Positions 5,567-49,138 of a DNA stretch of 64,000 nt are shown here, one piece after another. Position numbers and translations under genes: made by a program. Each line of letters starts with the position of its first letter. The stretch's first letter is position 1. Under the pieces are notes generated by a model. That model was not told where the DNA came from. It saw nothing but the letters and a program-made list of their open reading frames with translations, and ran no database searches. This DNA comes from Chiloscyllium plagiosum (taxonomy: Eukaryota): contig NC_057718.1 in assembly GCF_004010195.1 (NCBI RefSeq), forward strand, positions 89,279,645 through 89,343,644. Direction: 5' to 3'.

Positions 5567-5668
5567 ATTCCTGATCAAGGGCTTTTGCCCGAAACATCGA
5601 TTTTCCTGCTCCTCGGATGCTGCCTGACCTGCTGTGCTCTTCCAGCACTGCTCTGATCTAGAATCTGG
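5567..5668 (+). mobile_element. Penelope-derived short element (family A), degenerate hammerhead core
   Basis: attc-ctgatca-a-gggc-tttt-gccc-gaaacatc followed by the family body ctcggatgctgcctgacctgctgtgc. Confidence 0.75.
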
Positions 5669-6285
5669 CCATTGTCAAACAGCATTGATTTGGAGGGAGC
5701 GTGGAATAATGTGGTGAAAACCACACTCCACAAACTGCCCGACTCCCCTGACAATCTGGGCTCCAGTGTCATTCCAAACCGTTCTGCCCCCCCCGAAGAA
5801 GAGGGACGGTTTTAGTTGCGAATCGCAATTTTAACTCGCGAATGGGGGATAGAAACTGCCGACTCGGATGGTCCGGGTCAAGAGGAGTTGGGTCTGCTAA
5901 TGGAGGGGGGACGCTGAGCACTCACAGCAGGAGTTCAGCTCACGTTCCACTACCCTGCACCTATCCAGCAGTAAATTAAGTGACAGCAATTCACCGTGCA
6001 GACAGCTGACAGGCCGGAACCTCACTTGCAGGGATTTATTAGCAGCCTGCCCTTCCTTTGTGCTATTTTCGGAATCAATAAACATGGCACTTGGGTTTTG
6101 CACAAGAAGGAGACACTGCACTTTTGAAAAGCGAGGTGAAGGGGGACACCAAGAAATAGGCAAGATGGGCGGTCTGCAATGGTGGGGGGAGCCCAGGCGT
6201 GTAAAACATTCTCCACGGCGCGGGAAGGCTCCAACCAAGCACGCAACAGCAGAGAGCGACCGAACGCAGAGAAGCCGAGACCTGC

Positions 6286-6344
6286 CTGTTCACGTCACAG
6301 TGACACTCGGGAAGCTCAGGGTCTGCATCGCAGCACTCGGCCAT
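6286..6344 (-). CDS. SYNE1: Putative alternative first coding exon of a short nesprin-1-alpha2-like isoform: MAECCDADPELPECHCDVN(R)
   Basis: Strong Kozak gaagcgATGG, in-frame upstream stop at 6399-6401, phase-2 GC donor AACAG|GCAGGT matching the phase of this intron. Peptide resembles the recalled mammalian alpha2 N-terminus (..MAEDGC.VDADLPDCNCDVT). Confidence 0.7.
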
Positions 6345-7150
6345 CGCTTCTCCCCCCCCCAGGCGACTAGAGTGACGAGGGCCAGCCCGCTCACTGTGTC
6401 AGGAGCTGAGCAACTCTCGGAGAGTGCATGCCCTGGGACCCCATACAGCAGCAACCCCCTGCGCACGGCTTTGGCAATCCACACTCCCGGGCGGGGGGCT
6501 GCTACAGCCGGCCTGACAACTGGCACAACAGAGTGACAAGTGGTCAGGTTTCTAAATAAAAACTTACACTCATCGCCATGTGTTGCTGGCCTCACATTCC
6601 TGGGGCATCAGGCCAGCGACGCCAAGCACCTTCCAAAACGAGGGGCAGCACAGTCCTGACACTCCAACGTGGGCCATCCCAGTCTAAAGAGGCAGCTCCA
6701 ATGCTGAGAGTTCTCTGGTGCCTGGCTGCAGCAGGCAAACACTCTTCCTAAACTATTCCTAAACTGTGACGTCTCTCCACTGTGATGTGTGGAGACCAGC
6801 AAGGAAAATCATGAACTGTCAGAGGCCGGCTTTCTCTCTCTTTCTCTTCCCCCCTCTCTCTCTTGCTCTCTCCCCTTCTGAAGCTTTTCCCTCCTAATAT
6901 CGATGTGGTATGGGAGCACAGCCTCTCCCACACACTGTTCACTAACAATTGGGGCTTTCAAACGGTCGTTTTCCCTCTGAATCTTAGAGTCAGCCGAGCA
7001 ATCGCTGAACTGTGCAGCCCTGAGCTCTTGTGTCGGAGCCAAGATGTGGGACAATGAACAGAAAAATCCCCCAGCAGCTGCGAATTTCAGCTCGAGGATT
7101 TGCTGCGCACACTGACTTTCATTAGAGGCTGCAGGGCCAGCTGTGGGAAC
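6345..7150 (-). promoter_or_regulatory. Candidate internal promoter / 5' UTR for the short isoform
   Basis: Largely repeat-free, locally GC/CpG-rich sequence upstream of the 6344 ATG. MCAT core CATTCC at 6595-6600, E-boxes CAGCTG at 7075 and 7138 (also 6003 downstream). Confidence 0.35.
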
Positions 7151-7194
7151 GGCAGCTCCCAGAGCAGGGCAGAGGCTAGGAATATTATAGCAAG

Positions 7195-7370
7195 TAAGAC
7201 TCCACACAAAGCCTGTCCACCATCTGTAATGCACAAGTCAGGAGTGTGAGGGAATACTCCCCACTTGCCTGGATGGGGGCAGCTCCAGCAATGCTCAGGG
7301 AACTTGACACCATCCAGGACAAAGCAACCCGCTTGATTGGCACCACGTCCCTCCACCAATGCGAACCACT
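7195..7370 (+). mobile_element. LINE ORF2 C-terminal fragment (CR1/L2-like clade)
   Basis: Translates as EYSPLAWMGAAP..LRELDTIQDKATRLIG. Related 3' pieces at ~11040-11290, ~20660-20915, ~25970-26440 and ~40730-41010. Confidence 0.7.
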
Positions 7371-8117
7371 CAATATCTGCACGTCCACCTCTCCCCCACT
7401 GCCACCATTCACTCAGAAACCAGTAGGAAGGGGGGAGGCGTGCTTCACAGATCCGTTAGCAAAGAAACAAGCTGACCCCCCAGGGAGTCTAGAGAACTCT
7501 GCGGTGGCCAGTTTGAATGGAGTTTGAACAGAGGAAGTGGTGAGGCTACAGTGATTAATAACATGCGATATGCCAGGAAAGCAATTGTTATACAGTGCAC
7601 TGCCCTCTCCCTCTAACCTTCACCTTTGATGGTCTCCATTGTCCTTAACAACATTGTGTGTCAATTAATCAAGGCTGAAGGATGACTCTCATTGGTAAAC
7701 ACAAGGGGGTTACAGATGCAGTTAGTAGGTGAAAAAATATTGCTGCACCTCCCTCCAGTGCGTTACTCTTTAAAGCAGATTACTTTGACCACGTGCTTAA
7801 CCTATTGGCAAAGCAGGTGTTGTGGCACAATGGCAATGTCCTCACCTCTGGGCCAGAAGAGTCTGCGTTCAAGTCCTAGCTGCACTGGAGCTGGGTCAGA
7901 GCATATCCGAACATGACAGCAGTTGCTAGGTGGAATCCTAGACATCAAAACCAAATGTTGGGGGTTCAAGGGCTAATTTATAAACAGAGTAATGCAGTGG
8001 CCAAACTGGCTGCTGCCTGTCCGTCTCCTATAACCCTGGAGAGAGTTTACAAGTATCCCGTTTAGCGGTGAATGGGATGGGCTTCTCAAGGGCAACTAGG
8101 GCCAGGCAACAAACCAG

Positions 8118-8228
8118 ATTCCTGATGAAGGGCTCCTGCCCAAAACGTCAATTCTCCTGCTCCTCGGATGTTGCCTGACCTGCTGTGCTTTTCCAGCACC
8201 ACTATAATCTGCAGTCCTCACTTTCCCC
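8118..8228 (+). mobile_element. Penelope-derived short element (family A)
   Basis: attc-ctgatga-a-gggc-tcct-gccc-aaaacgtc plus family body; GAAA is decayed. Confidence 0.75.
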
Positions 8229-10054
8229 AAACAAATCAGCTGGCATTGCCCACGCCCTACGAGTGAATGTCGAAAAGAAAACTTAAAGACAGTCTCTATA
8301 ATTCTGACCTGACAGCTTTGCAAAAGCCTGCAATGCAAGTGAATTCACATCAGGAAACTAAACGCTTTCAAGAACACCAGCGCCTCTAATTAAGTATCAT
8401 TATAACGGCAAAACATAACAACAAAGGGGCAGGTAACTTGACACACGATCTGAGCACTTCATACAAAGCAGGGAACCTGATGGAAGATAAAAGGGAGCAG
8501 GAGGGGATTGAAATCTGAGCAAGGCTGTGGTGACCCGAGGCAAGTTTAACATCCAAGCCAGTAACACCGCCTCAATCAGAAAACACACTCATTTTAAAAA
8601 TATATATATATATTTTTCTGCAGATTACTTATGCAGAGTTTGCTGCATAAGTGTTTATTACAGCTGCAAATAAATCAGGCTGCAGCTTTCCCTCTTTGCT
8701 GAAAACAATGGAGTTGAACATAAATCAGTTTGAGTGGAAACACAGCCTCTGGACAGATCCAAGGGCAGGGAACCATGGAAAGCTGGAATGCTGTGAGCGT
8801 CGCTTGGGAAGCTCCGGAATTGAGCCGGCTTGGACAACGCTCCGAGCCGCTTGGCCTGCCTTTATCGGAATGTGGGAACAATCCCTCGAGGCCTGAACCA
8901 CCACAGGCTCCTGTAGACGTAGCTCAGACCGGCTTTTGGAATCCGGCAATTTCTTTCTCACGGCAAATAAACCTGCTTTTGTTGGACCTCCCACACTCCA
9001 GCGTCACGCCAAATGGCCTGGAGTCGCTGGAATCCGTGCCAACGGGGACAGCAGCGATGCCCGGACGAATGGCGTGCACAGCAGCCTCCCCCACCCCTGT
9101 GATAGGGCATGTCTGCATCGCTGTCTAAGGGGAGCCCCTCACAGTACGGACCAAGAGGAGAGCATTCCCTGTCCGCACGGCCGGTTATTATAGCTGCAGC
9201 TCCTCATTTTCAGCTCTTGCCTGATTCACTGGGCAACCGATTAAAAGGGCACTGTGTCAAGGGGTCAGGCTCAAACGGAAGCAAGGCTATGATCTGAATT
9301 TGAATTGTTCAGATTTACAACAGTGCACCCATTGCCTGCGCTTGACTGACTTCATCAGTGAGCAGCAATCTGATTTCAGACTTCGTTCCTTCCCCTCCCC
9401 CCACCAGTCAGCTTCACTACTTACAATCAGCCTGTCTATTTCTCTGGATCTGTCACAGTCTTACAGATGGTGGAAGCTGTCACTAACGATGGCTCGTCTG
9501 CTTAGAACAGTGCCAACAATCCCCAGCAACCCTCCCCGCTCACACAACTAACTGTTTCTAAGCTGGTTCCAGCAACCTCACTCTCTCTCTCTCTCTCTCT
9601 CATTCACCCAGACTTCCAATCTGCTTAATTACCAAGCCCGCCTCCCCCGCCACACCCCTCTCCTCCTCAATTCATCCACAGCTGAAATCCTCATCCCCAC
9701 CTCTGTACATTTAACCCTTTTAATGTCAGGGAACTTTTCTCAACACTGAGCTCGGTTAATGGTCTTTACCAATCTCCAACAGTCCTTCTCTCAAACAAAT
9801 CAGCAGCTTGGCCAGAAATAGTGTTACAATTCCATCGTATAGCGCAGTGACGGTGCCGAGGCTGAATTTAGTCAGATACTAGACTCTGCCGACGCAGAGG
9901 TCATGAGTTCAGGTCCCAGTGCAGCAGGCTAGGAGTATGAATTCAATTAAATTTGTGGGAAGACAGCATGGAAAAGTGACCGCAAACAAATTGCCACAAA
10001 CTGCGGGCGACATATCTGCAAAAGGACGCTCTCTCGATGGAGGGCGTATATTGA

Positions 10055-10520
10055 TGGTTTACCAGATTGATTCCGGGGAATGGCAGGATAGATGGCTGAG
10101 GAAACACTGGATCGGTTTGGATTATAGTCACTGGAGCTTAGAAGAAGGGGGAGTAGGGGAAATCACACACAAAATTCCAAAAGGACTAGACAGGGTAAAT
10201 GCAGATGACCAGGGAATCCAGAACCAAGGATTCAAAGTTGATGGAAATGGAGTAGGCCATTCAGGGCTGGGAGGAGGAGAAACATCTTCACCCAGAGAGG
10301 GGTGGGCCTATAGGATTCACTGTCACAGAAAGCGGCTGAAACCAAAACACTAAAAACTTTCAAGAAGAAGTTAGATATAGTTCATATGGCTTAAGGGATC
10401 AAAGGTTATGGGGAGGAAGTGGGACCAGGGCACTGAGTTTGATCACTGGCCATGATCATATAGAATGGTGGAATAGTCCCGAAGGGCCGAATGGCCTACT
10501 CTTGCTTCTATTTTCTATAC
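10055..10520 (+). mobile_element. CR1-type LINE 3' fragment
   Basis: tttaccagattgattccggggaatggcagg ... ggccgaatggcctactcttgcttctattttctat CR1-type tail. Confidence 0.75.
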
Positions 10521-13134: not shown

Positions 13135-13635
13135 TAGGAGGAAGCGAGGACTGCAGATGTTGGAGAGTCAGAGATGAAAAGTGTGGCGCTGGAAAAGCAT
13201 AGTGGGTGAGGCAGCATCGAGGAACTGGAGAGTCAACATTTCGAGCAAAAGCCCCTCATCAGGAATGTGGATGGGGGTAGGAGGATGTGGGCAAGGCGGC
13301 TGGGAAGGTGATAGGTGGATGCAGGAGGGGGGTTAATGGTGACAGGTTGGAGGGGAGGGTTGAGCAGTGTGGCGGGAATGAAGATGGACAGGTAGGGCGG
13401 TGCCGAGTTGGAGGGTTGGACCTGGGATGAGGTAGGGGGAGGGGAAATTTAGAAACTGGTGAAGCTGATGTTGATGCCGTGTGTTTGAAGGGCCCCAAAG
13501 TGGAAGATGAGGTGTCCTTTCTCCAGTCATTGGGTGGCTTGGATTTGGCAAGAGAGAAGGCCCAGGACTTTCATGTCCTTGGGTGGGTGGAGGGGGAGTT
13601 GAAGTGGTCAGCCACAGGGCAGTGGGGTTGTTCAT
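13135..13635 (-). mobile_element. Penelope-like element 3' end: GIY-YIG C-terminus, 3' UTR and family-A terminal repeat with hammerhead-like core
   Basis: Minus strand reads PVADHFNSP...LGLL...LE..HLIF.FGALQTHGINISFTSF, then attcctgatgaggggcttttgctcgaaatgtt. Ties family A to a PLE. Confidence 0.75.
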
Positions 13636-13679
13636 TATAACCAAGGCAATGCACAGCCCAACTGCTGATTCAGGGAAAT

Positions 13680-14173
13680 GCATCAGAATACAGCTGATAT
13701 TATCAAACTGGAGAGGGTTCAGAAGAGATTTACCAGGATGTTGCCAGAAACGGAGGGTTTGAGTTTTTTAAGGCATGCTGGGACTTTTTTCACTGGAGCG
13801 AGGAGGTGGAGAGGTGACCTTACAGGAATTTATAAAATCGTGAGAGGCATAGATAAGGTGAATGGCAGGTTTCTTTTTCGCAGGGTGGGGATTTCAACAG
13901 GAGGGGACATATTTTTAAGGTGAGAGGAGAAAGATTTTAAAAAGACATAAGGGACATTTCTTGTTACATAGGAGTGGTTCATGTGTGGAATGAACCTCCA
14001 GGCAAAGTGGTGGATGCAAATACAGTTATATTTAAAAGATATTTGGGTAAGTTCATGAATAAGGAATGTTTGGAGGGATACGGATGAAGCACAGGCAGGT
14101 GGGACTAGTTTGGTTTGGGATTATGGTCAGCATGGGCTGGTTGGACCGAAGGGTCTACATCTGCGCTGTATGA
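13680..14173 (+). mobile_element. CR1-type LINE 3' fragment
   Basis: DIIKLERVQKRFTRMLP peptide and CR1 3' UTR ttggaccgaagggtct..gctgtatga. Confidence 0.9.
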
Positions 14174-14375
14174 TGTGGGGGTGTTAGTGTTGGACGGGGG
14201 TGGACAAAGTCAGAAGTCACATGACACTAGGTTATGGTCCAACAGGTTTATCTGAAATCACAAGCTTTTGGAGTGCTGCCCCTTCACCGGGTCCCCTATG
14301 ATTACTGGTGAAAGTTTGTGATTTCAAATTAACCAGTTGGACCACAACCTTTTGTTGCGTGACTTCTGACTTTGT
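14174..14375. mobile_element. Penelope-derived palindromic short element (family C) with TSD gctgtatga
   Basis: Inverted arms caaagtcagaagtcac / gtgacttctgactttg; direct repeat at 14165-14173 and 14376-14384. Confidence 0.65.
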
Positions 14376-16738: not shown

Positions 16739-16881
16739 TACAGGGAAATCTTAATTATCCGACATTTGATTTTCCGAATATCAGATTATCCGGCAAGATC
16801 GCACATCCTGGTGCTTGGCTAAACTATGTTATCCGGCATTCGATTATCTGAACAAAATATTCCCCGCCTGTGTCCAACAGA
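16739..16881. mobile_element. Tc1/mariner (Tigger-like) MITE, degenerate
   Basis: TA-flanked, imperfect terminal inverted repeats, internal repeated attatccg motifs. Confidence 0.55.
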
Positions 16882-17710: not shown

Positions 17711-17793
17711 AGAGTGTGGTGCTGGAAAAGCACAGCAGGTCAGGCAGCATCCGAGGAGCAGGAGAATCGACGTTTTGGGCATAAGCCCTTCAT
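17711..17793 (-). mobile_element. Penelope-derived short element (family A) inserted in CR1 ORF1
   Basis: Reverse complement of the family-A repeat; interrupts the esterase reading. Confidence 0.75.
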
Positions 17794-18365: not shown

Positions 18366-18562
18366 TCAGGAGTGTGGTGCTGGAAAAGCACAGCAGGTCA
18401 GGCAGCATCCGAGGAGCAGGAGATTTGACATTCCTGATGAAGGGCTTATGCCCATAACGCCGATTCCCCTGCTCCTTGGATGCTGCCTGACCTGCTGTGC
18501 TTTTCCAGCGCCACACTCTTTGACTCTGACCTCCAGCATCTGCAGTCCTCAATTTCTCCCAG
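18366..18562. mobile_element. Palindromic family-A element with 13 bp TSD gggcagataaggg
   Basis: Inverted copies around attcctgatgaagggcttatgccc; direct repeat at 18353-18365 and 18563-18575. Confidence 0.8.
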
Positions 18563-22004: not shown

Positions 22005-22334
22005 CTGTACGTATGACTGTATGACTTTAAGATCCTCTGAGTGCCTCTTGTGTGAGGCAGGGCCAGCTCGCAAAGCGAGGAGAGCATACTGGAGAAACTC
22101 AGCAGGTCTGGCAGCATTTGCCAGACAAAATAAAAACGAAGAATTTGCCTTGGCACAGAAAGGCATTCATCTTCAAATTGCCTAGGTCTGAAGAACGGTC
22201 ACGCTGCACTCGAATCAGTAACTCTGTTTGTTTCCCCACAAATACTGCCAGACCTGCTGAGTTTCTCCAGCATGCTCTCCTTGCTTTGGGGGCTGGCCTT
22301 GCCCCACACAAGAGGCACTCGCAGGATCTCAGAG

Positions 22335-23290
22335 TCATACAGTCACACAGCACAGAATCAGACCCTTCAGTCCAACTCGTCCATGCTGACCAAATTTCCC
22401 AAACTCAACCAGTCCCATTTGCCTGCGTTTGGCCCATCTCCCTTCAAACCTTTCCTATTCATGTACATTTCCAAATACCTTTTAAATGTTCTAACTCTAC
22501 CTGCATCTACCACTCCCACACGAACCATCTTCTGTGTGAAAACATTGCCTCTCAAGTTGCTTTGAAATCTTTTTCCTCTCACGTTAAAAATACGCCCCCT
22601 AGCTTTGAACTCTCCCACCCCAGGGAAAAGACCTTTACTATTCACCTTGCTTATGCCCCTCATGATTTTATAAATCTTTTGTAAGGTGACTCCTCAACCT
22701 CCTACACAGCAGTGAAAACATTTGCGGCCTATCCAGCCTCTCCTTATTACGCAAACCCTCCAGTTTCGTTAACACCCTTGCAATTGTGTTTTCATATCCT
22801 CTCCCAATTTAATAATATCCTTCCTACAGCAGGGCGACCAGAACTGGACACAGTACTCCAAAGGTGGTCTCACCAATGCAAATACAACTGTATAATGAGC
22901 TCCCAACTCCATTACTTAATGGTCTGAGCAACGATGGCCAGCATGCCAAAGATCTTCTTAAACACCCTGTCTACATGTGGCAAAACTTCCAAAGAATTAT
23001 GTACCTGAACCCCATGGTTTCTCAGTTTGGCAACACTACCTAGGGCCCTAACATTAACTGTATAAGTCCTGTCGTTGTTTGTTTTACCAAAATGTAATAC
23101 CTCACTTTTAGCCAAAGTAAAATCCATCTGCCATTTCTCGGCCCACTAGCCCAATTAATCAAGATCCTTTTACATTCTTAGATAACTTTCTTCATTGTCC
23201 ACTATACCATCAATTTTAGTGTCATCCACAACCTAACCATGGCTCCAACATTCTCACCGAAATAGTTGAAATAAATGACAAACAACACTC
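22335..23290 (-). mobile_element. CR1-type LINE 3' fragment
   Basis: Minus-strand RT-region peptides (KSEVLHFGKTN, RGNVFTQKMV) and CR1 tail. Confidence 0.88.
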
Positions 23291-24650: not shown

Positions 24651-24710
24651 TAAAGATCCATTTTACAATTAGCAGCTGATTTAGACTGTTACTCAATTTG
24701 GACAAATCTC

Positions 24711-24911
24711 AGAAATGGCCGGGAAAACTCAGCAGGTCTGGCAGGCATCTGGGAAGAGAAAGCAAAGTTAACGTTTCAGGTCCAACTTCAGAACTCTTCT
24801 GAAGAAAGGTCACTGAACCTGAAACGTGAACTTTGCTTTCTCTGCACAGACCTGCTGAGTTTTCCCTGTTTTGGTTTCTGATTTCCAGCATTCACAGTTG
24901 TTGGGTTTTTT
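24711..24911. mobile_element. Palindromic Penelope-derived element (family B) with TSD gacaaatctc
   Basis: Inverted aaactcagcaggtctg / cagacctgctgagttt arms, core ctgaaga-a-aggt..acct-gaaacg, direct repeat at 24701-24710 and 24918-24927. Confidence 0.7.
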
Positions 24912-25092
24912 AATTCAGACAAATCTCTACGACTTAATGCGGTAATCTCTTTACGTTTTGAAAAAAAATCTGAAGACCCAGACAGGGAATTACCCATCTA
25001 CACCTTCAAAGGAAACGCGGGGTTAGTGTATTTAAACAATGGGAATGAATAACCACTGGTGAAATCACCTCGGGTGGCGTTTCAGAATTTAC

Positions 25093-25660: not shown

Positions 25661-25850
25661 CAGGTCAGGCAGCATCCAGGGAACAGGAGATTCGACGTTT
25701 CGGGCACAGGCCCTTCTTCAGGAATGACAAGAAGGGCCTGTGCCCGAAACGTCGAATCTCCTGTTCCCTGGATGCTGCCTGACCTGCTGTGCTGTTCCAG
25801 CAATAAAGTTTCAACTTTGATCTCCAGCATCTGCAGACCTCACTTTCTCC
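25661..25850. mobile_element. Young palindromic family-A element with perfect 58 bp inverted arms
   Basis: Arms 25661-25718 and 25729-25786; duplicated flank tacaca(g/c)actat. Confidence 0.85.
25690..25725 (-). ncRNA. Minimal type I hammerhead ribozyme motif, intact core
   Basis: AUUC-CUGAAGA-A-GGGC(CUGU)GCCC-GAAAC-GUC-GAAU: stem I AUUC/GAAU, 4-bp stem II, palindromic ACGU stem III. Confidence 0.7.
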
Positions 25851-30100: not shown

Positions 30101-30255
30101 GACCCTGCAATTTCTCCCCTCGTTTTCCACAGCATCCTGGGATACATGTGATCTGGTCCCAGTGATTTACCAACTTTCATACGTTTAAAGACTTCTGTAA
30201 TCTGAACTCTTTTCCAAACAACACTATTTATTTCTCGGAGTTCCCTAGCTTCCAC
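27195..30255 (-). mobile_element. CR1-type LINE split by a Rex1/Babar insertion (pieces ~27195-28130 and ~29677-30255)
   Basis: RT peptides FSKAFDRV..GRLVSKV and DWNMANVVPLFQKG; the two pieces read as collinear. Confidence 0.85.
28135..29672 (+). mobile_element. Rex1/Babar-clade LINE, 5'-truncated and degraded
   Basis: [48 protein letters not shown], tail cttcactgtatctcagtacaagtgacaa. Confidence 0.85.
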
Positions 30256-30682
30256 ATCTCACATCATCACAATTCAACTGCAGCACAACAATGAAGGTTC
30301 ATTGCCCTTTTAATGTTTCTTTCCCAGTTATTATGAATCTGTACCCTGAGTCCTTACGCGGTCTCCTGCCATCTGCTTTATCAAAACTATTCAGCATTCT
30401 TAAAACCTCTACTCCACCTCCCCTTAATCTACTCTATTCCAGAGAAAAATTTCACTTCTTCAGTCCCTCGACAAAACTGCGGTACCATTCCTATAAGTCT
30501 CCTCCATACCTAGTATTGGCCACCTGCTTGAAGCTACAGAGGGTGATCATGAGACCTCCATCACTGAATTCCTCGTGATAGTGCAGCTTGGTGTCACTAA
30601 ACTTCCCAATACAGAAGTCTCAAAGTACACTTTAAAAAGGAACAGCATTATTTCATTGTAACAAATCACCTTTGTGACACAG

Positions 30683-35679: not shown

Positions 35680-37410
35680 ATCAACATACATCTGATTTAG
35701 ATGGGCAAGTAGAAGGTGTGGTTAGTAGGTTTGTGGATGACACCAACATCGGTGGCATAGTGGACAGTGAAGAAGGTTACCTGAGATTTTTACAAAAAGA
35801 TCTTGATCAATTGGGTCAACGGGCTGAAGAGTGGCAGATGGAGTTTAATTCGGATAAATATGATTGCGTTTTGGTAAAGTGATCAAGGGCAGGACTTCTA
35901 CAACTAAAAATAGGGCCTTGGATAGTATGGGGGAACAGAGAGACCCAGGAGTTTAGGTACATAATTCTTTGAAGTTTGTATCACATAATGATAGGATGGT
36001 TAAAAGGACATTCAACATGCTTGCCTTCATTGCTCAGATCTTTGAGAGCAGGAGTTGGAATGTGATGCTGAGGTTGTACAGGACGTTGGTGAGGCCTCTT
36101 CTGGAATACTGTGTGCAGTTCTGGTCGCCCGGTTATAGGAAGGATATTACTAAGCTAGAGAGGGTTCAGAAGAAACTTAACAGGATGTTGCTGGGAATAG
36201 AGGGTTTGAGTTATAAGGAGAGACTGGGACTTCTTTCACTGGAGCGTGGGAGGTTGAGGGGTGACCTTCTAGAGGTTTATAAAATCATGAGGGGCATGGA
36301 TGAGGTGATTGACAGGTGCCATTTCCCTGGGGTGGGGAATTTCAAAACCAGGCAGCATATTTTTTTAAGGCGAGAGGAGAAAGATTTAAAAAAGACATGA
36401 GGTGCAGATCTTTTATAAAAAAATCACACTGAGTGTGGTTTGTGTGTGGAATGAATTTACAGAGGACGTGGTGGATGCAGGTACACTTACAATATTTAAA
36501 AGACATTTGAATAAGCACATGAATAAGGAATGTTTGGAGGGATATGGGCCAAGTGCAGGCAGGTGGGATTAGTTCAGCTTGGGATCAAGGTCAGCATAGA
36601 CTGCTTGGACAAAGGGTCTGCTTCGGTGCACTATGATTCGATCCAAGATCACAATTTCTAAATAGTAAGCTCTCAGAGATGACTTTGGTTAGTATTTGCT
36701 TAGTTGTGAGGTTCCACTCTGTACACCAATGGATCAAAATTTCACCAGATTTAAACAAAAGAGGAAGTGACGCAGAGGTACTGTACAAAAGCCAGTCATT
36801 ACCAACACTCACAGAATAACTTCCACAGTGAGCTGAGCAATTTCTAGTTATTGAGGGAGTGCAACAAAGGTTTACCAGACTGATTCCTGGGAATGGCAGG
36901 ACTGACACATGAGGGGAGACTGGAGGGAGAGTTAGCATTGTATTCAATGGACGTTAGAAGAACAAATGGGAGATCTCTTAGAAACTGATATAATTCTAAC
37001 AGGACTAGACAGTGTAAACGCAGGAAGGATGCTCCTGATAACCAGGGAGTACAGAACCAGGGGTACGGTTTCAGGACACAGGGCAGGCCATTTAGGATTA
37101 CCGGACCGGACGTCGTTGCCACAATCAGATTGCCGTGTGCAAAACACCGGAGCAGCAGCGCAGCTGAGATGGAATGGACCGAACTAAGGAGATGCGTCTT
37201 CACCCAGACACCAGTGAGCCTGTGGAATCCTCGGTCACAGAAAGCTGTTGAGGCCAAAACACTGAATGTTTTTTTTTAAGAACGAGTTGGATATAGTTCT
37301 TAGGGCTCAAGGGAACAACGGGTACGTCTAGAGGGCAGCAACAGGGGACTGAGTTGGACGATCAGCCATGATCGGACTGAATAGTGGAGCAGGCTTGAAG
37401 GGCTGAATGG
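35680..37410 (+). mobile_element. Two CR1-type LINE 3' fragments (~35680-36640, ~36850-37410)
   Basis: [27 protein letters not shown]1 tails. Confidence 0.88.
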
Positions 37411-37944: not shown

Positions 37945-38478
37945 AGGGGAGGTGACGGCCTCCTGGCTTTATCACTAGGCTATTAGTCCCGAGACAGAAA
38001 GCGTGGTGCTGGAAAAGTGCAGCAGGTCAGGTAGCATCCAAGGAGCAGGAGAGCCCTTACGAAGGCCTTATACCTGAAACCTCGACTCTCCTGCTCCTCG
38101 GATGCTGCCTGACCTGCTGTGCTTTTCCAGCAACATACATTTCGACTCTGATTCTCCGGCATCTGCAGCCCTCACTTCCTCCAACTAATCCAGAGACCCT
38201 GGCACCATTCTGGGGACCCGGGTTCAATCCTGCCACAGAAGGTGGTGGAATTTAAATTCAGTGAAACAAAACAAGTTCGGAATCACAAGTCCAACGATAA
38301 CCATTGTCAGGAAAAACGGATCTGACTCACTAATATCCTTTAGGATCTGGCCTCATCTGGTCTGGCCTTCATGTGAATCCAGACCCACAGCAACATGGTT
38401 GACTCTTAATTACCCTCTGGGCATTTAGGGATGGGCCATAAATGCTACCTAGCCAACGACGCCCACATCCCATGAATT
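37945..38478 (+). mobile_element. Deu-domain (SacSINE1-like) tRNA SINE containing a palindromic family-A element (~37997-38182)
   Basis: B box gggttcaatcc, body ccagacccacagcaacatggttgactcttaa, tail gcccacatcccatgaat. Similar copies at ~46450-46560, ~47400-48060 and ~60215-60520. Confidence 0.7.
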
Positions 38479-39139: not shown

Positions 39140-39878
39140 TTCTTCTGGAGTATTGTGTGCAATGCTGTTATAGGAAGGACATATTAAACTGGAAAGGATT
39201 CAGAAAAGACGTTGCCGGGAATGGAAGGTATGGAGACTGGAAAGACTGGACCTTTGTTTTTAACTGGAGTGTAGGTGGCTGAGGGGCGACCTTATCGAGG
39301 GTTTATAAGATTGCAAGGGACATAGATAAGGTGAATAAGAATGGTCTTTTCCCCAGGGTGGGGGAGTTCAAAACCAGGGAGCATATTTTTGAGGGGAGAG
39401 GAGGATGTTTTAAAAAGGACATGACGGGCAACTATTGTGCACAGACAGCGGTTCGTGTGTAGAATGAACTTTCAGAGATAGCGATGGATGCAGGAACAGT
39501 AACAACATCTAAAGACATATGGGCAAGTTCACGAATAGGAAAGGTTTGGAGGGATATGGGATGGGACAAAAGGTGTGGCGCTAGTAAAGCACAGCAGATC
39601 AGGAAACGTCCGAGGAGTGGGAGAGTCAACGGTTCGGGCACAAACCCTTCATCAGGAATGAAGAGCGTTTGCACAAAACATTGGCTCTCCTAGTTCTCAG
39701 ATGCTGCCTGACCTGCTGTGCTTTTCCAGCACCACACCTTCCGACTCTGATTCTCCAGCATCTGCAGTCCTCACTTTCTCCTTGGAGGGATATGGGCCAG
39801 GAGCAGGCAGGTGGGACTGGTTTAGTCTGGGATTACAGACGGCATGGACTGGTTGGACCGAAGGGTCTGTTTCCATGA
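39140..39878 (+). mobile_element. CR1 3' fragment containing a palindromic family-A element (39561-39781) with 15 bp TSD ttggagggatatggg
   Basis: Direct repeat at 39546-39560 and 39782-39796. Confidence 0.85.
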
Positions 39879-40322: not shown

Positions 40323-40449
40323 CATTCCTGACGAAGGGCTTTTGCCTGAAACGTCAATTTTCCTGCTCCTCAGTTTCTGCCTGACCTGCTGTGCTTTTCC
40401 AGCACCACTCCAAACTTGACTCTAATCTCCAGCATCTCCAGTACCCAGT
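40323..40449 (+). mobile_element. Family-A element with intact hammerhead core and 10 bp TSD tcaagcttcc
   Basis: ctgacga-a-gggc-tttt-gcct-gaaacgtc; direct repeat at 40313-40322 and 40450-40459. Confidence 0.8.
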
Positions 40450-41024
40450 TCAAGCTTCCAGCCCACTGCCAGGTCTTCCAGTCCCAGGAAATATTTAAAA
40501 TCTGTCAATCTTTCTCCAGACAGGAACATTCAGACGCACTTGAAACCCCGATGTACACATGCTGACTGTGTTGGTGAGCCACAGCACATCTTGCCTTTCG
40601 GAGAATTCGCTTTGTGCTGTGTGTGTATAAGGTTGTGACTCTGCCTGTGGGACTGGCAGAGTCCACAACCTTTGGGACTGCAAAGTGCCCACATATAAAT
40701 CAGTGGATTTGCTGTAATTTATTTGTTTTAATTCATGGGATGCAGGCAACATTGAAGGGGCCAGCATTTACTGCCTGTCCCTAGTGGCTCTTGAGAAGAC
40801 GGTGGTGAGCTGCCATCTTGAACCCTTGCAGTTCAGATTGGTCCACCATGGCCTGTTTGGGTGGGGGGGTGGGGGAGGTGGCGGAGATTCCAGGATTTGG
40901 ACCCAGCAGTACTGAAGGAACAGCAATATATTTCCATGTGAGTGGCTTGGATGGGAACTTAAGAGTGTGGTGTTCCCTCGCATCTGCCAGCCTTGTCAAT
41001 CTAGATGGTAGTGATGTGGTGGAG

Positions 41025-41125
41025 GGGCTGGTGTTGGACTGGGGTGGACAACGTCATAAGTCGCACAACACCAGGTTATAATGAACTTCACCTGAAGAAG
41101 GAGCAGCGCTCCAAAAGCTTATGAT
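41025..41125. mobile_element. Family-C Penelope-derived fragment
   Basis: gtgttggactggggtggacaa start as at 14187; core cctgaagaaggagcagcgctccaaaagc. Confidence 0.6.
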
Positions 41126-41849
41126 TACACTCACACTCACAACCCCCACCCCAGACAGACACACACACAGACACAAACACACAATGATATTACTAACAGA
41201 TTGCCTGTGGTATTGCACTTGGCCGAGTACAGGATATAATTTAGTCTTGGTATTAAAATCTGACAGGAAGTTACCATAAGTGTAAACTACACACAAGACT
41301 ATTAATGTGGGTTCGAATGCAACAGGAAGTAGAGTTATGGTGAAAACCAATGCACAAGTAAGGTAACTTGTCAGGAGGCCTGGATTTAACCCACACCCAG
41401 CAGCTGAGCAGCCCAAGTTAGTGTATCCAAGGGTTGCTAACCCAGAGAACTTTGCTCATAACTTGACTTCTCGTGAGAAGTGACTGCTTTTGGAAGTGGA
41501 GTTTCCTGTAACGTTGCCAGAATCTAAACACAGGTTACTTTGGTCACTTCCTCAGATGGTTCTATTTGAAACCATCAGATCACATTCTAATATTAACTAT
41601 GGAGGATTTTGTACAATGGTTTGGACCGAGCATTAACAACCAGCTCTTTACCCTTTTCTGAATATAGACTTTAACGGGTTAAGAACTGTAACAAAAACAT
41701 CAGATCTATCAGATAATGGAAACTTAGAGAAGTGGGTTGGAAACTTATCAAAGTAACATCGTGCAGGTGATGGTGCGCTCCAGCCTGCCCATCGGTCTCT
41801 AAAAGCCTCTCCAATACCAGTTCGCACTGTTCGTTCCCTCGTGATGGGA

Positions 41850-42818: not shown

Positions 42819-42821
42819 CTG

Positions 42822-43278: not shown

Positions 43279-43544
43279 ATTAATCCCTAGTTTATGCAAA
43301 GTGTCTGAGGCCCATGACAGTAGACTGATCGCGGAGTGAAGGTGATAGTCAGGGCGGCCAAATGTCCAAGGGCTGTTGCCAGCAATGACCACTTAAACAC
43401 CCAAACTGATGGCCAGACAACAAGTTCTCCTGGACTCCGTTAAGCAACACAGTGAACAGTGATGATAAGAAATGGAACAGTAAGAAGTGAACATAGTAGA
43501 AGGTGCACAGTTGGACGGTGCTACAGTAGCACAGAATTAAAAAA

Positions 43545-44900
43545 GAAACAGAAAGTGCTGGGAATACTCAGCAAGTCTGGCAGCATCAATGGAGACTGAG
43601 AGAGAGAGTTAACGGGTCAGGTCGATTTTTTCAGTTCAGAACTGGAATAAATGAGAGAAGTAAAAAGGTTTCAAACAATCCCAGAGGCAGGGATAAGGGA
43701 GAGGGAGGAAAGAGCCTTTAGTTAAATGCTAAAAGGAATGATGATCCCTGATGAAGGGCTTATGCTTGAAACGTCGACTCTCCTGCCCCTCGGACGCTGC
43801 CTGACCTGCTGTGCTTTTCCAGCACCACACTTCTCGACTCTGATCTCCAGCATCTGTGGTCCTCACTTGCTCCCAAAAGCAAGGAGAAAGGAGATATGGA
43901 CATAAGAGACAGGACAGGGTTTGATACGATCAAGGTTCACCGTGGTCACAGGACGAGGAACGAAAGGTAGAATTCGAGCAGGCCTGAACAGGAAGAACAG
44001 AATGGATACCACCCAAAACACACATCATGAAGGAAGGAGGAAAGGGAAGGGAAGGGAAGGAAGGTACAATTAAAATCTGAAATTGTCGAACTTTGTGTTG
44101 AGTCTGGAAGGCTGTGAAGTCTCTCCTCAAGAGCCTTGCATTGAGTTTCACAGGAACAGTGCACCAAGGCCTGAGGGCCAAGGGGTCAGTGTGGGAACAG
44201 GGCAGAGACTGACCATGACGGTCGCCTGCAAAACAGCCGGCAAATCCCAAACCTCAAAATGAAAGACAGGGGTGCACATCACAAGCAGCGGAGGCAGTAG
44301 ACTAAAATACAAGCTCGTCACAGGAGACCAGTGCAGTCTTGCATGAGGAGAATGGAGGAGGGAAATGGAGGGGATGTTCCATCTGCGGTGCCCTGGATGT
44401 TACCTGGGTGCTGGGGGTGACCGAGAGCAGACCAGGCCATTAGGGAGTGAACATGAAGAAAGTAATACATGTTTGTTGGTTTCAGGTTGGCAGGTCATGT
44501 ATGTTGAGTGTCCATTTGAATTCAGGTAGTGGACATGAACCAGGAATTCACATGCGCTCCTGTATATTGGAGCAGATTGAAACTGCAGCTGGTCCGTATG
44601 GAGGGGTGGCTTTGTAACATGAGATACTCCATACAGTAGCTTCAAGTTTATAACATCTAGGTTCCAGCTCTAACCTGGCTCCCTTCGATAGGATGGCAGA
44701 GGGGGATCTATTCAATCAGGAGCCGGTCTGAAAGAAGGTGAGGACAAGGGGATCCTATCCTGGCTCTGAGAGGGAGGGTAGGAGGTAACAGCAGAAGTGG
44801 AACAGTCACTAGCATGGGTCTGCCAACCACCGCTGTTCACTGAGGGATAAGGGAAATGTATCTGGACCTTTGGTGAGGAGGATTACATCATCAGGTCAGA
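43545..44900 (-). mobile_element. Highly degraded Penelope-like element (family-B terminus) with a nested family-A copy at 43745-43873 (+)
   Basis: ctcagcaagtctggcagcatc..gagttaacg terminus and PLE-like C-terminal remnant near 44075-44220. Nested copy has ctgatgaagggcttatgcttgaaacgtc. Confidence 0.5.
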
Positions 44901-45537
44901 CGTAACAAAGCCAAAGGAGAGTGGAATGTGGTCAGGAAGCTGAGGAAATATCTTTACACCCACAGGGTGAGGGGTGTCCATAACTTACCACCACTGTCAC
45001 AGTAACAGAGGCAGGAGTCTTCAAGAAATATTTAGACGGCACTGGAAATACCAGACCATGGGCAACTGCAGGAAAATGGGATTAAAAACAGAAAGATGCT
45101 CGATGACACAGCAGGAAAAAAAGCCTTTTGACTGGGTTTCTCCCCAGGATGTGAGGCTGTACGGTGAGTCAGAGTGATGGCAATTACAGTGAATAATGAC
45201 AAATTGTCCCCATTGCTGGAGGCAGGCCAATGGAGGGAGGGAGAGAAGACTTCCTCCGGGGCAGTGGGCACAGACAGTGGCACTAGGAAATGGGCAAAGA
45301 GACAATGGCACTGGGGGAGGGGAGGGAGAGAAGGCACAGAGGGAGGAGAGAGAGAGACACAGACAGAGAGCGCGAACACAATGGGTGAGGAGGCAGAGGG
45401 ACTGAGGAGGAGAGGAAGAGGCAGTGAGGGGAGGAGAAGCCTATGGCAGGGAGAAATCGGGGGAGGATGCAGGTGACTAGACAGAGGACAGTGACATGAA
45501 CTGGAGATGGTTACAGTAATACAGGATTAGACATGAA

Positions 45538-45745
45538 TACACGTTCTCCCGCTATCAGAAAGTCGAGCGTCCCTGTGAAACCTTTCGTAAGCCGAAATGA
45601 CGTAGAGTGAAGAAGCAATAACTTTTTCGGTAAAAGCGAAAATCATCTTTGGATTTCTTTTGGTTAGTGAAAACAGGGACTAATGTAGGTCTGTTGTAAA
45701 AGTGAAGTGTGTAAAGTGAACTTTCAAAAAGTGGGGTACCATGTC
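45538..45745. mobile_element. Tigger-like MITE, degenerate
   Basis: Imperfect TIRs tacacgttctcccgct / agtggggtaccatgt, internal repeated cgaaa/gtaaa motifs. Confidence 0.45.
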
Positions 45746-45864
45746 ATTAATTGACAATGTCAGGAAGTCTCTCTCTCTCTCTCTCTCCTTGCTGCGTGCT
45801 GTGACAGCGAGAGGGACATAAATCAGCGTGAGATTGGGTACACTGTGAGAACAGCGATGCTCAC

Positions 45865-46102
45865 CTGCACCTCATCCAGCAGGCTCCTGGCCTGCTGCAG
45901 GGCAATGGGAGCTGCACTGCCCCACCTCTGCTCCAGCTGCTGGGAGACATCCGACAGCCACTTCCTCAGCTTCTCCGCCAGCTCCCGGTAACGCTGCCAC
46001 TGCCGGACCTGACTGTCAATAATCCCTCTCCGCTGCTGTGCCCGCCGGATCACCCCCTGCCACTGGTTACTCAGCATCGCCAACTTTGAGTTAAACTCAT
46101 CC
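45865..46102 (-). CDS. SYNE1: Nesprin-1 coding exon (R)DEFNSKLAML...ARSLLDEVQ
   Basis: ggttAG acceptor, CAG|GTGAGC donor, 238 bp, phase 2/0. Contains SNQWQGVIRRAQQRRGIIDSQ. Confidence 0.95.
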
Positions 46103-46785
46103 CTAACCGAGAGAGAAAACAAACAAACAAAACGCAGCATGGTTTATTTGATTCGAGCCGAACTGTTCCTCATCACCGTCAGGCACTCTGCGATTTGTTG
46201 GAGGTTCATCAGGGCTGAAGAGTGTCGATGAACAGGAAACACAGAGATCATTCAGCCCCTCAACCTGCTGCACAGAACACAAAAGTAATTCAAGCCTGTT
46301 ATACAGGAACAGGAGGGGCCCATTCCATCATTCATGGAGATCCTGGTTGATCTGCATCTTCATTCCATCTACCAGTCCTTCCTCTTTATTTCTTCATCTC
46401 TGTTACCAAGCAAATCGCGACCATCAAATTTTATCCCACCCTCTTTCCATGCACTCCAGACCCACAGCAATGTGGTTGACTCTTAACTGCCCTCTGGGCA
46501 ATTAGGGAGAGACAATAAATGCTGGCCTGACCAGTGATGCTCTCATCCCATGAATGAATATTTAAAAAAAAACAAAAGCACTTCTACAGACAGAGCACAG
46601 AGATCCAGATTTTCATTGCCTTGCACGTGCTTCCTGATAGGATCCGGACCAGCCTCCCACTCGTTTTAAGGCACTGTACCCATGTCTTGGCACATGGACA
46701 ATGCTGTAAAGTTAGTTTTGCTTATTTATTGAATTAAAAGGGACATAAGGAGCAACATTTTCACGCAGAGGGTGATGCATGTGCA

Positions 46786-47268
46786 ACAAGTAAAACTAAT
46801 GTCATTTACAAAATATCTCGCAGAACTGTAACAAAGACTACATTGGATAAACAGGCAGAAAACTAGCCACCAGGATATATGAACACCAACTAGCCACAAA
46901 AAGACATGACCCACTCTCCCTAGTATCCTTACATACAGATAAGGAAGGACACCACTGGTACAACACATCCACCCTCGGACAAGCCAAACAGAGACATGCA
47001 TGAGAATTCCTAGAAGCATGGCATTCCAACTGGAACTCTATCAACAAACACATCGACTTAGATCCCATTTACCACCCTCTGAGAAAAAGAACAGGAAATG
47101 ACATCACCACAGGAAATGGCATCACCAACCCAAGGAAACCTCAACACATAAATGAAAGCAGGTCACTGACACCAGTGCTTCACCGGAGACTCACTGATGA
47201 CGTTACCTAGTATGGTGGCGAAACGTCTGAAATAGAACCTTCCAGTTCAGCGAGCAAACTTACATCCG
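46786..47268 (+). mobile_element. Penelope-like element 3' fragment: GIY-YIG endonuclease remnant plus terminal repeat
   Basis: TNVIYKI..NCNKDYIG*TGRKLATRIYEHQLATKRHD...EFLEAWHS..SINKHIDLDPIY with stops and frameshifts. Confidence 0.85.
47191..47230 (+). ncRNA. Minimal hammerhead ribozyme motif
   Basis: UCA-CUGAUGA-C-GUUACC(UAGUAU)GGUGGC-GAAAC-GUC-UGA. Confidence 0.7.
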
Positions 47269-47540
47269 GCAACTTTTGATTTGAACCCAACTGAGCTAAA
47301 ATGCAAACTTTGCCCTCTTGGGGGCGTTTATAACTGAGGGTAACAGGGAGGAGGGATTTCTATGAAACAGAATTAAAGGGAAGCTCCTGCTGCTGGTCAG
47401 GGGAGACAATGGCATACTGGTGATATCACTAGACGATAATCTAGAGACCCTGGCTCATGACATTCAGATTGGGCTCAAGCGCCTCCTTGACAACTGGTGG
47501 AATTTCAATTCATAAAATCTGGAATTGAAAGCTAGTCGTG

Positions 47541-47873
47541 AATCATAGAATCCCTAGAGTGTGGAAGGGGGCCTTTCGACCCATCGCGTCCACGCTGACC
47601 CTCCAAAGAGTATCCCACCCAGACCCACACGCCACATATCTTTTCCCTGTAACCCTGCATTTCCCCTGACTAATCCACGTAACCTGCACATCCCTGAACA
47701 CTATGCACAACTTAGCATAGCCAATCCAACTGACCTGCACATCTTTAGACTGTGCGAGGAAACCAGAGCACCCGGAGGAAACTCACAGGGAGACTGTGCA
47801 ATCTCTACAGAGGCAGTCGCCCGAGGGTGGAATCGAACCCGGGTCTCTGGTGCTGTGAAGCAGCAGTGCTAAC
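47541..47873 (-). mobile_element. HE1-type SINE nested in a Deu-SINE
   Basis: Reverse-complement HE1 body and tail. Confidence 0.85.
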
Positions 47874-48089
47874 TAGAGTAACAATGGTAACAATGAAACT
47901 ATCACCGGATTGTTGTAAAAACCCATCTGGTTCACTCATACCCTTCAGGGAAAGAAATCTGCCATTTGTAACCAGTCTGGCCTACATGTAACTCCAGACC
48001 CACTGCAACATGGTTCATACTCATCTGCTCTCAAGGGAAATTAGAGGCGGAGCTCAAATGTTGGCCTGGATTCACTGATGAATTCAAGG

Positions 48090-48540
48090 GATTCAGAAAA
48101 GATTTACAAGGATGTTGCCAGGGTTGTGAGGGTTTGAGGTCTAGGGAGAGGCTGAACAGGCTGGGGCTGTTTTCCCTGGAGCATCGGAGGCTGAGGGGTG
48201 ACCTTATAGAGGTTTACAAAATCATGAGGAGCATGGATAGGGTAAATAGGCAAGGTCTTTTCCCTGTGGTGGGGCAGTCCAGAACTAGAGGGCATAGGTT
48301 TAGGGGAAAGATATAAAAGGGACCTAAGGGGCAACTTTTTCACACAGAGAGTGGTGCGTGTATGGAATGAGCTGCCAGAGGAAGTGGTGGAGGCTGGTAC
48401 AATTACAATATTTAAAAGGCATCTGAATGGGTATATGAATCGAAAGGGTTTAGAGGGATATGGTCCAGGCGCTGGCAAATAAGACGAGATTAATTTAGGA
48501 TAAATAATCTTCGTGGCATGGATGAAGGGTCTGCTTCATG
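48090..48540 (+). mobile_element. CR1 3' fragment
   Basis: LNRLGLFSLEHRRLRGDLIEVYKIM. Confidence 0.9.
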
Positions 48541-49138
48541 TCTCTCGACCCTAACTATAGGCCATGGAGAGTCAGTAGAGACTTGCAAGAGACTGGGGGA
48601 ATGAATAACAAGGCCTTACAAACCAGACATATTAAATACCGAACAGAAACAGGAAGTGCTTTCGAAACTCAGCAGGTCTGGCAGCATCGTGGAGAGAAAG
48701 CAGAGTTAACATTTCGGGTCCAGTGATCTTTTCTCAGAACCTATCTTCCCAGAAGTTTCTGATTTTCAGCACCCACAGTTCTTTACTTTAATTTCAGCAT
48801 TAAACTCCAATCTGATTTCTTCATCTGAATTTCTGTGGAACCAGTTTGATTGGAATTACACCAAAATTAAACAGATCTCAACTCATATAGGTTTATTCTA
48901 AATAAAAATAGCTGGATAGTGACTACTCTTCGATGTAATGAGAGGACTGTGAGCTACATTCCTTTTCATTTCCCTTTACAGACTGTTCCTTGCACTGCAC
49001 AGTCCCTTCAAGATTGCTGTGCACCTTAACGCGTTCGCTGCTCACACACTCAGCTTCTGCACGGCAGCACATTCTCAACACAAGTGCAGCCAGCCCTCCA
49101 GAGCAGCTGGGAGGGAAAACTGACTGCGAGGCTCCTAC

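What the first reader, a model, noticed from the sequence alone, without database searches (positions are those of the whole stretch)
5567..48790. Introns seeded with several families of short Penelope-derived elements carrying minimal hammerhead ribozyme cores
Seen: family A (consensus attc-CTGATGA-a-GGGC-nnnn-GCCC-GAAAC-GTC-ga) at about 5567, 8118, 13135, 17711, 18366, 25661, 37997, 39561, 40323 and 43745. Family B (ctgaaga..ggtc..gacc.gaaacgttaac) at about 22080, 24711, 43545 and 48650. Family C (ctgaagaaggagc..gctcc.aaagc) at 14174 and 41025. The bodies differ, but all keep CUGANGA + hairpin + GAAA, and stem II differs in sequence between families while still pairing. Family A is attached to a GIY-YIG C-terminus at 13445-13635. 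Established: Penelope-like elements carry minimal type I hammerheads in their terminal repeats, thought to cleave as dimers via a palindromic stem III. Inference: these 100-220 bp units are an abundant non-autonomous, retrozyme-like population mobilised by PLE proteins. I cannot tell whether these families are already catalogued.
Basis: partly seen in the sequence, partly recalled or inferred. Interest (0 to 1): 0.75.

Follow-up and report, generated by a model that had tools for sequence, protein, structure and literature searches.

The report
Penelope leader run-off copies carrying hammerheads
These short intronic repeats are the hammerhead-bearing ends of several ordinary Penelope-type jumping genes; their shared start point with an extra G suggests they are likely dead-end DNA copies that ran off the capped front of the element's RNA rather than a self-spreading ribozyme family, which gives a testable clue to how this class copies itself.

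Summary
All 16 named sites are real repeats in introns of a nesprin-1 gene, and families A-C carry minimal type I hammerheads whose stems I-III covary between families. Most window copies are decayed: 3 of 16 pass a strict descriptor. All three families join upstream to GIY-YIG sequence, and A also to RT, so they are pseudo-LTR ends of Penelope-like elements, about 1 million arms genome-wide by extrapolation. They are not retrozymes: no regular tandem arrays, ends not at the cut site, no short-only lineage. They are not random truncations either. 5' ends pile up just before the hammerhead (about 7-fold), about 30 nt behind a TATA-like box in B and C, with a position-specific extra G (64/100 and 76/100 against 13/100 and 20/100 in controls). 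That pattern fits cDNA run-off at a capped RNA start. About half the A and C arms sit in head-to-head palindromes, typically with one tailed arm and a target duplication. One RNA library shows family C polyadenylated upstream of its DNA ends. Minimal hammerheads, inverted pLTRs and tails are published. This scan noted the palindromes and the cap-G reading before, on this and other genomes.

The parts
5567..5662 (+). Family A solo short copy, starts at -4, short 3' end; hammerhead core mutated
8118..8228 (+). Family A solo copy with a G immediately 5' of ATTC (8117); GAAA box mutated; 3' end approximate
13136..13645 (-). Family A long copy: broken GIY-YIG C-terminus (about 13445-13640), 3' UTR, hammerhead (C3 at 13262) and long tailed end
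17711..17793 (-). Family A solo copy trimmed into the core, short end
18369..18561 (.). Family A head-to-head palindrome, one short and one tailed arm, 13-14 bp target duplication
25661..25850 (.). Family A palindrome inside a short tandem repeat; the minus arm (C3 at 25721) has a fully intact minimal hammerhead
37997..38182 (.). Family A palindrome, short plus tailed arm, cores damaged
39561..39781 (.). Family A palindrome with a 15-16 bp target duplication
40324..40446 (+). Family A solo copy starting at -4, core intact, 10-12 bp duplication
43744..43873 (+). Family A solo tailed copy, core intact, stem II partly wobble
22011..22348 (.). B-like palindrome with longer 110-nt arms (89% complementary); hammerhead core lost
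24709..24918 (.). Family B palindrome, short plus tailed arm, 10-11 bp target duplication; plus-arm core has G at position 17
43546..43632 (-). Family B decayed solo copy, core lost
48646..48790 (-). Family B minus arm (48646-48740) followed by a remnant of an opposite tailed arm
14173..14375 (.). Family C palindrome, tailed minus arm plus short plus arm, 9-12 bp target duplication
41015..41131 (.). Family C deleted palindrome: tail of a minus arm joined to a plus-strand hammerhead (C3 at 41091, GAAA mutated)
46800..47270 (+).
45883..46110 (-). Host exon of a nesprin-1 (SYNE1) gene; the copies between about 37.6 and 51.3 kb lie among its exon-like frames

Best explanation
The units are the hammerhead-bearing pseudo-LTR ends of at least three endonuclease-positive Penelope-like retroelements, and most are likely dead-end cDNAs that ran off the capped 5' end of the element's uncut RNA rather than a self-propagating family. 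Shown: each family links upstream to GIY-YIG sequence; the DNA copies end at two sites (about +89 and +125 from hammerhead C3); their 5' ends pile up at the 5' edge of stem I with an extra G; about half of the A and C arms form head-to-head pairs with heterogeneous junctions, typically one tailed arm, and 9-16 bp target duplications. Inferred: Pol II starts at an initiator-like A (-4 in A and B, -8 in C) about 30 nt behind a TATA-like box. The element's RT-endonuclease cuts the target with a stagger and primes internally at the two tail sites, as shown in vitro for the Anolis element. It reads through the uncleaved hammerhead, copies the cap as one extra C and falls off after about 95 or 130 nt. 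One cDNA joined to the target by microhomology gives a solo copy; two cDNAs, one from each target end, joined to each other give a palindrome. The copies lack the upstream TATA box and, by analogy with the Anolis element, the RNA downstream of the priming sites that the protein needs, so they are likely inert. The ribozyme is likely a passenger in them.
For: Link to protein genes: a family A hammerhead lies on the same strand about 1.0-1.6 kb downstream of the RT match in 18 of 28 oriented loci (30 fetched). GIY-YIG sequence lies upstream of A, B and C copies. 5' ends of 145 solo arms from 1.157 Mb of random sequence: 74 at -15..+10; loss rate 0.038 per nt there against 0.005 on either side. 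Independent loose ends at exactly -4 in three public runs (112 reads, 171 and 55 contigs). Extra G: 64 of the first 100 listed non-C junctions in an A subfamily and 76 of 100 in C, against 13/100 and 20/100 one base away (my hand counts) and a 26% background; Fisher p 7e-14 and 1e-15. In 7 G-junction copies among the 30 loci the duplication ends on that G, and the target often continues GA or GAT, so the G acts as microhomology. TATA-like box 28-32 nt upstream in 6/7 B and 6/8 C long copies. Palindromes: long+short in 32/52 A, 5/10 B and 15/15 C, long+long in 1, 1 and 0; junctions heterogeneous. No short-only lineage. Published parallels: two internal RT start sites and use of uncleaved RNA (PMC11167929); untemplated G attributed to the cap in L1/SVA (PMC3287187).
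Against: No transcription start was seen in RNA: neither lay showed a place where many molecules begin, though the one raw library is poly(A) single-cell and only about 2% of it was read. Family A has no canonical TATA (0/26), only a YTTAT motif in 21/26. Of the copies with a non-A base at -4 (6,584 matches), many start 1-15 nt inside, so trimming must be added to the model. The extra G was not tested for family B. D. virilis Penelope has an internal promoter (PMC2377424), so short copies might still be transcribed. 19 of 52 A palindromes scored short+short, which may be decayed tails or true exceptions. Arms of a palindrome were closer to each other than to the median copy but usually not closer than to the best other copy (11/35 A, 1/12 C). 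No full-length source element with an upstream pLTR was found in 10 extended loci.
Confidence: 0.7

Rival explanations
1. The short units are a self-propagating non-autonomous (SINE-like or retrozyme-like) population, transcribed from their own loci and mobilised in trans by Penelope proteins.
For: Defined ends, target duplications and about 1 million arms by extrapolation. Some palindrome junctions recur identically. pLTRs can mobilise sequence in trans (PMC3846280), animal retrozymes derive from pLTRs (10.64898/2026.07.22.740005), and an internal promoter exists in D. virilis.
Against: No regular tandem arrays. Ends are not at the cut site. Short copies are no closer to each other than to long copies (A 0.907 vs 0.900, B 0.740 vs 0.753, C 0.864 vs 0.864). 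Most junctions differ from locus to locus. The TATA-like box is left behind. Family A RNA reads fall on both strands about equally.
Confidence: 0.15
2. The template is a long read-through RNA and reverse transcription stalls at the 5' edge of the folded or protein-bound hammerhead, giving a truncation hotspot without any transcription start there.
For: The hotspot coincides with the 5' strand of stem I in A and B. Long copies show a continuous truncation series through the UTR, endonuclease and RT. RT adds untemplated bases (general knowledge).
Against: A stall does not predict a G at one position only, nor a TATA-like box 30 nt upstream. In C the hotspot (-8) lies 5 nt outside the 3-bp stem I.
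Confidence: 0.12
3. The copies are random 5' truncations, or cDNAs of ribozyme-cleaved RNA.
For: PLE copies are known to be heavily 5'-truncated (PMC8557442). A small group of ends lies at +25..+35 near the cut site (A: 4/67 solo and 11/115 palindromic arms).
Against: About 7-fold excess of ends at -15..+10. Most copies keep the core upstream of the cut site, which a cleaved RNA would lack.
Confidence: 0.03

Closest known systems
[quoted passage not shown]
   Same: Type I core, short helix I, extra base between positions 9 and 10.1, loopless palindromic helix III, several covarying families per genome, mostly single dispersed motifs, and opposite-strand pairs 100-700 bp apart that the authors tied to truncated PLEs.
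   Different: Far higher copy number here (about 1 million arms against 4,000-9,000 motifs in coelacanth and Xenopus, counted differently). The fixed 5' end with an extra G is not described in the parts read.
EN+ Penelope-like elements with inverted pLTR, tail and TSD (Neptune type; PMC8557442 and PMC3846280, passages read)
   Same: RT then C-terminal GIY-YIG with a Cys-rich linker, heavy 5' truncation, inverted 5' copy, a 30-40 bp tail on one arm only, 9-16 bp target duplications, TATA/Inr-like motifs in the pLTR.
   Different: Here the commonest insert is reduced to the pLTR alone, or two pLTRs head to head. Clade assignment rests on motif likeness; no tree was built.
Anolis Poseidon PAc (PMC11167929; parts 1-2 of 4 read)
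   Same: Two internal RT start sites that define the tail; uncleaved RNA is the template; no RNA ends seen at the cut site.
   Different: Different clade for A-C (family D is the Poseidon-like one). Cap run-off products and palindrome formation were not reported in the parts read.
Animal non-LTR retrozymes (PMC7229834, passages read; 10.64898/2026.07.22.740005, parts 1-3 of 5 read, supplements closed)
   Same: Short non-coding units with type I hammerheads related to pLTRs; reported in one chondrichthyan genome.
   Different: Retrozymes are head-to-tail tandem arrays that yield circular RNAs between two cut sites. These units are solo or head-to-head and are not bounded by cut sites.

Membership tests
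PLE minimal type I hammerhead | CUGANGA, stem II, GAAA and UH core above chance | tested here: met
   27 strict hits in 464 kb against 0-1 per shuffle; met for the families, lost in most window copies
PLE minimal type I hammerhead | Palindromic positions 15.2/16.2 with no loop 3 | tested here: met
   CG in A (128/145) and B (25/25), GC in C (67/68) (B and C partly by selection; both forms also seen in unselected DNA)
PLE minimal type I hammerhead | Extra base between 9 and 10.1; short covarying helix I | tested here: met
   Extra A in A, B and C, T in D; 3-4 bp helix I with different pairs per family
PLE minimal type I hammerhead | Self-cleavage as a dimer | not testable with these tools
   Only a 4-bp intermolecular duplex was computed (-3.1 and -4.5 kcal/mol); no read ends piled up at the cut site
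EN+ Penelope-like element | RT followed by GIY-YIG upstream of the pLTR | tested here: met
   A: RT in 18/28 loci. GIY-YIG for A, B, C and D. Pfam hits on the fragments were weak and below cut-off. RT was not shown for B, C or D.
EN+ Penelope-like element | Inverted pLTR, one-sided 30-40 bp tail, target duplication | tested here: met
   58, 8 and 17 head-to-head pairs against 2, 0 and 2 tail-to-tail; tail classes and duplications
EN+ Penelope-like element | Full-length element in partial tandem with an upstream pLTR | tested here: inconclusive
   All RT-bearing copies examined were 5'-truncated
Neptune clade | Zn-finger-like Cys linker before the endonuclease and RT phylogeny | tested here: inconclusive
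   A Cys-rich linker precedes the GIY-YIG in A; no phylogeny was run
Non-LTR retrozyme | Head-to-tail tandem units, each with a hammerhead | tested here: not met
   31 of 343 arms have a same-strand neighbour within 600 nt, at irregular spacing
Non-LTR retrozyme | Unit bounded by the ribozyme cut site | tested here: not met
   5' ends at about -4/-8, 3' ends at about +89/+125, cut site at +28 to +30
Non-LTR retrozyme | Abundant small linear or circular RNAs | not testable with these tools
   Only a poly(A) library was available as raw reads
SINE-like non-autonomous PLE derivative | Own lineage distinct from the coding element | tested here: not met
   Short-to-long identity equals short-to-short identity (only 19, 4 and 5 long copies)
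SINE-like non-autonomous PLE derivative | Promoter carried inside the unit | tested here: inconclusive
   The TATA-like box lies outside the unit; a downstream internal promoter was not tested

The most novel reading that the evidence does not exclude
The pLTR works like a retroviral U3-R-U5. It has a TATA box, a capped start just before the hammerhead, a poly(A) site at +55..+58 (seen in RNA for family C) and priming sites at +86/+122 beyond it. A normal mRNA would then carry the priming sites only in its 5' leader, so every target-primed reaction first makes a strong-stop cDNA that must jump to the repeated hammerhead segment at the RNA's 3' end to copy the body. The roughly one million stubs and palindromes would be failed strand transfers, and the palindromic stem III might hold the two RNA ends, or two RNAs, together for that jump.
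Probability: 0.25. Interest if true: 0.75.

Novelty: new member of a known kind. Interest (0 to 1): 0.4.

Why it matters
The elements themselves are an expected footprint of a known retroelement class. Their value lies in number and regularity. They mark a likely transcription start, both priming sites and, for family C, a used poly(A) site at base resolution, which makes the open questions of how Penelope-like elements form inverted pLTRs and what the hammerhead is for directly testable with the existing in vitro system. Some 180,000 family C arms, most with a poly(A) signal, could also truncate host transcripts, and the palindromes would form long double-stranded RNA in introns.

Tried and rejected
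Rfam found no hammerhead family in the window at E up to 5, only chance microRNA and lncRNA matches to the palindromes. My first 5'-end mapping used the top-scoring references and under-extended copies of other subfamilies (the 13266 copy was scored -9); it was replaced by the most-extended mapping, which dropped 27 of 209 A, 7 of 74 B and 4 of 60 C arms as unmapped or cut by stretch ends or N runs. One self-copying palindromic master was rejected because junctions mostly differ. A splice acceptor at the 5' edge of helix I, as in D. virilis, was considered: only B has AG there, and short copies share no upstream exon. No RNA holder was listed for the window copy, and run X11 laid no reads. No full-length element or shared sequence beyond +135 was found. 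A genomic A-run behind the family C poly(A) site gave 0 exact matches (that search may skip simple repeats). Lunse et al. 2017 was not held and is known only through a review passage (PMC6765202). Paper searches for shark Penelope hammerheads, solo or palindromic pLTRs and Penelope strong-stop or strand transfer (0 papers) showed no description of these families or of that mechanism, judged from listings. Repbase and Dfam could not be searched, so whether the families are catalogued is open.
Full report
Setting. The window comes from a 3.56-Gb genome. An exon at 45883-46110 (minus strand) matches nesprin-1 at up to 77% identity, so at least the copies among its exon-like frames are intronic. 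Positions below count from C3 of CUGANGA.

Observation. All 16 named sites hold copies of three repeat families. A strict minimal-hammerhead descriptor gave 27 hits in 464 kb against 0-1 in each of 10 shuffles. Exact core patterns occur 14,227 (A), 51 (B) and 12,421 (C) times in the genome, with 0 for the reversed controls. In 120 evenly placed 10-kb stretches (1.157 Mb without N) there were 209 A, 74 B and 60 C arms, which extrapolates to about 640,000, 230,000 and 180,000. Stem I, stem II and the stem III palindrome differ between families and keep pairing, and all carry the extra base after A9 (partly by selection for B and C). Individual window copies are mostly decayed: 3 of 16 named sites pass the strict descriptor. 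Rfam did not detect them. A fourth, Poseidon-like family with an intact core and its own GIY-YIG end lies at about 46800-47270.

They are ends of coding elements. Among 30 loci fetched with an RT fragment, 28 could be oriented and 18 have a family A hammerhead downstream on the same strand. GIY-YIG sequence precedes A, B and C copies. Only about a dozen of the 209 random A arms retain endonuclease sequence. All RT-bearing copies examined were variably 5'-truncated, and no full-length element with an upstream pLTR was found. Short copies are as close to long, element-linked copies as to each other, so no separate short lineage is visible at this sample size.

Ends. 3' ends fall in two groups, about +83..+94 and +118..+128, confirmed by 10-15 bp target duplications. 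This is the published 30-40 bp tail (PMC8557442, passages), which in the Anolis element marks two internal RT start sites on uncleaved RNA (PMC11167929, parts 1-2). 5' ends are not random. Of 145 solo arms, 28 end at above +10, 74 at -15..+10, 34 at -16..-299 and 9 extend further, a loss rate of 0.038 per nt at the hammerhead's 5' edge against 0.005 on either side. Public runs laid on a long A copy show loose ends at exactly -4. Only a minority of ends lie near the cut site at +28 to +30.

The extra G. In long copies of one A subfamily the base before ATTC (-4) is C. Among copies with a non-C base there, 64 of the first 100 listed have G (5,876 matches). For family C, 76 of 100 have G before the A at -8 (1,522 matches). 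One base away the figures are 13/100 and 20/100, and background is 26%. These are hand counts of listed rows from contigs C1-C2. In several solo copies the G is the last base of the duplication and the target continues GA or GAT, so it serves as microhomology. An untemplated G at L1 and SVA 5' junctions is attributed to copying the cap (PMC3287187, passages). A TATA-like box sits 28-32 nt upstream in 6/7 B and 6/8 C long copies; A has none canonical (0/26) but YTTAT in 21/26. I infer a capped transcription start there. No start was seen directly in RNA.

Palindromes. Head-to-head pairs number 58 (A), 8 (B) and 17 (C) in the random sample, against 2, 0 and 2 tail-to-tail. Exact patterns count 8,896 A and 1,221 C pairs joined within 30 nt of the core. 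Junctions mostly differ and show microhomology and templated inserts, although a few forms recur. One long plus one short arm is the rule: 32/52 A, 5/10 B and 15/15 C, with long+long in 2 pairs overall; duplications of 9 bp or more were found in 19/52, 2/10 and 8/15. For C this is p about 2e-5 under independent ends. Arms were more alike than the median copy but usually not more than the best other copy. Inverted pLTRs with a tail and TSD are published (PMC3846280, passages), and opposite-strand min-HHR pairs were noted in PMC4209133.

RNA. In one poly(A) single-cell run, of a species not shown to be this one and about 2% read, family A reads fall on both strands about equally, as intronic read-through would give. 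On a family C copy about 1,400 reads run into poly(A) at +55..+58, 12-15 nt after A(A/T)TAAA and just before a GU-rich tract. They cross the cut site with no pile-up of ends and come from several sequence variants. No genomic copy has an A-run there. The signal is present in 46/59 C arms, against 22/201 A and 3/72 B arms. Because the DNA copies end at +86 or +122, beyond this site, polyadenylated family C RNA cannot be their template at its 3' end; the template must be a leader or a read-through RNA. Whether these reads are element or host transcripts is unknown.

Mechanism. Most likely (0.7) the element's RNP primes at the two tail sites in the RNA leader, runs through the uncut hammerhead, copies the cap and stops. 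One cDNA gives a solo copy; two, one from each target end, give a palindrome. The products lack the upstream TATA-like box and, by analogy with the Anolis minimal RNA, the downstream binding region, so they are likely inert. Rivals: a self-propagating non-autonomous family (0.15), stalling at the folded ribozyme (0.12), and random truncation or cleavage products (0.03). The boldest reading not excluded (0.25) is an LTR-like U3-R-U5 layout with obligatory strand transfer. It rests on one family and one library, and read-through transcription explains long copies equally well.

Comparison and novelty. The hammerheads match the min-HHR description (PMC4209133, parts 1-2; review passage PMC6765202). 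The units fail the tandem and cut-site criteria of non-LTR retrozymes (PMC7229834, passages; 10.64898/2026.07.22.740005, parts 1-3, whose closed supplements list chondrichthyan families that I could not compare). Searches showed no paper on these shark families or on Penelope strand transfer, judged from listings; Repbase and Dfam were not searchable. This scan has 173 notes on such palindromes in at least 16 genomes. Two of them mention copying of the RNA's front end, and I saw them before designing the G test. Notes with the cap-G reading were seen after my counts; the TATA check and the term strong-stop came from one of them and the TATA claim was tested here. These notes are not independent support. 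Verdict: new members of a known kind, with a useful mechanistic footprint; interest 0.4.

Noticed in passing
L131:1542-1562 (family C, +38..+58 from C3): Family C pLTR carries A(A/T)TAAA plus a GU-rich tract, and about 1,400 RNA reads are polyadenylated there; about 180,000 genomic arms could supply poly(A) sites to host genes.
   Followed up: partly
window 46800-47270: Poseidon-like Penelope 3' end with GIY-YIG and an intact hammerhead core with a 6-bp stem II; 5,732 first-look candidates in the genome.
   Followed up: partly
L048:2224-2947: Three copies of another long-stem-II hammerhead family, two on the same strand 226 nt apart and one opposite.
   Followed up: no
window 18486-18561; L084; L102: The segment shared by families A and B begins with an ATG and reads MLP(D/E)LL(C/S), which may be the start of the element's reading frame inside the pLTR.
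   Followed up: partly
window 22011-22348: B-like palindrome whose arms extend about 75 nt beyond the usual B end, suggesting a further subfamily.
   Followed up: no
window 1-2550: Long tandem array of 27/32-nt units.
   Followed up: no
window 60681-62591: Several 190-260 nt direct repeats at irregular spacing.
   Followed up: no
window 13700-14160, 22400-22720, 29578-30258, 35957-36610, 47972-48535, 52202-52870, 53160-53745: Many fragments of one LINE-like RT C-terminus and 3' end; the CR1/L2-type label is recalled, not tested. Three Penelope stubs (14173, 39561, 13136-13645) sit in or against such fragments.
   Followed up: no
L014 (G000:C1, around 1117936-1118000): A young palindrome whose two arms share a private internal duplication, so both arms derive from one template or were homogenised.
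   Followed up: no
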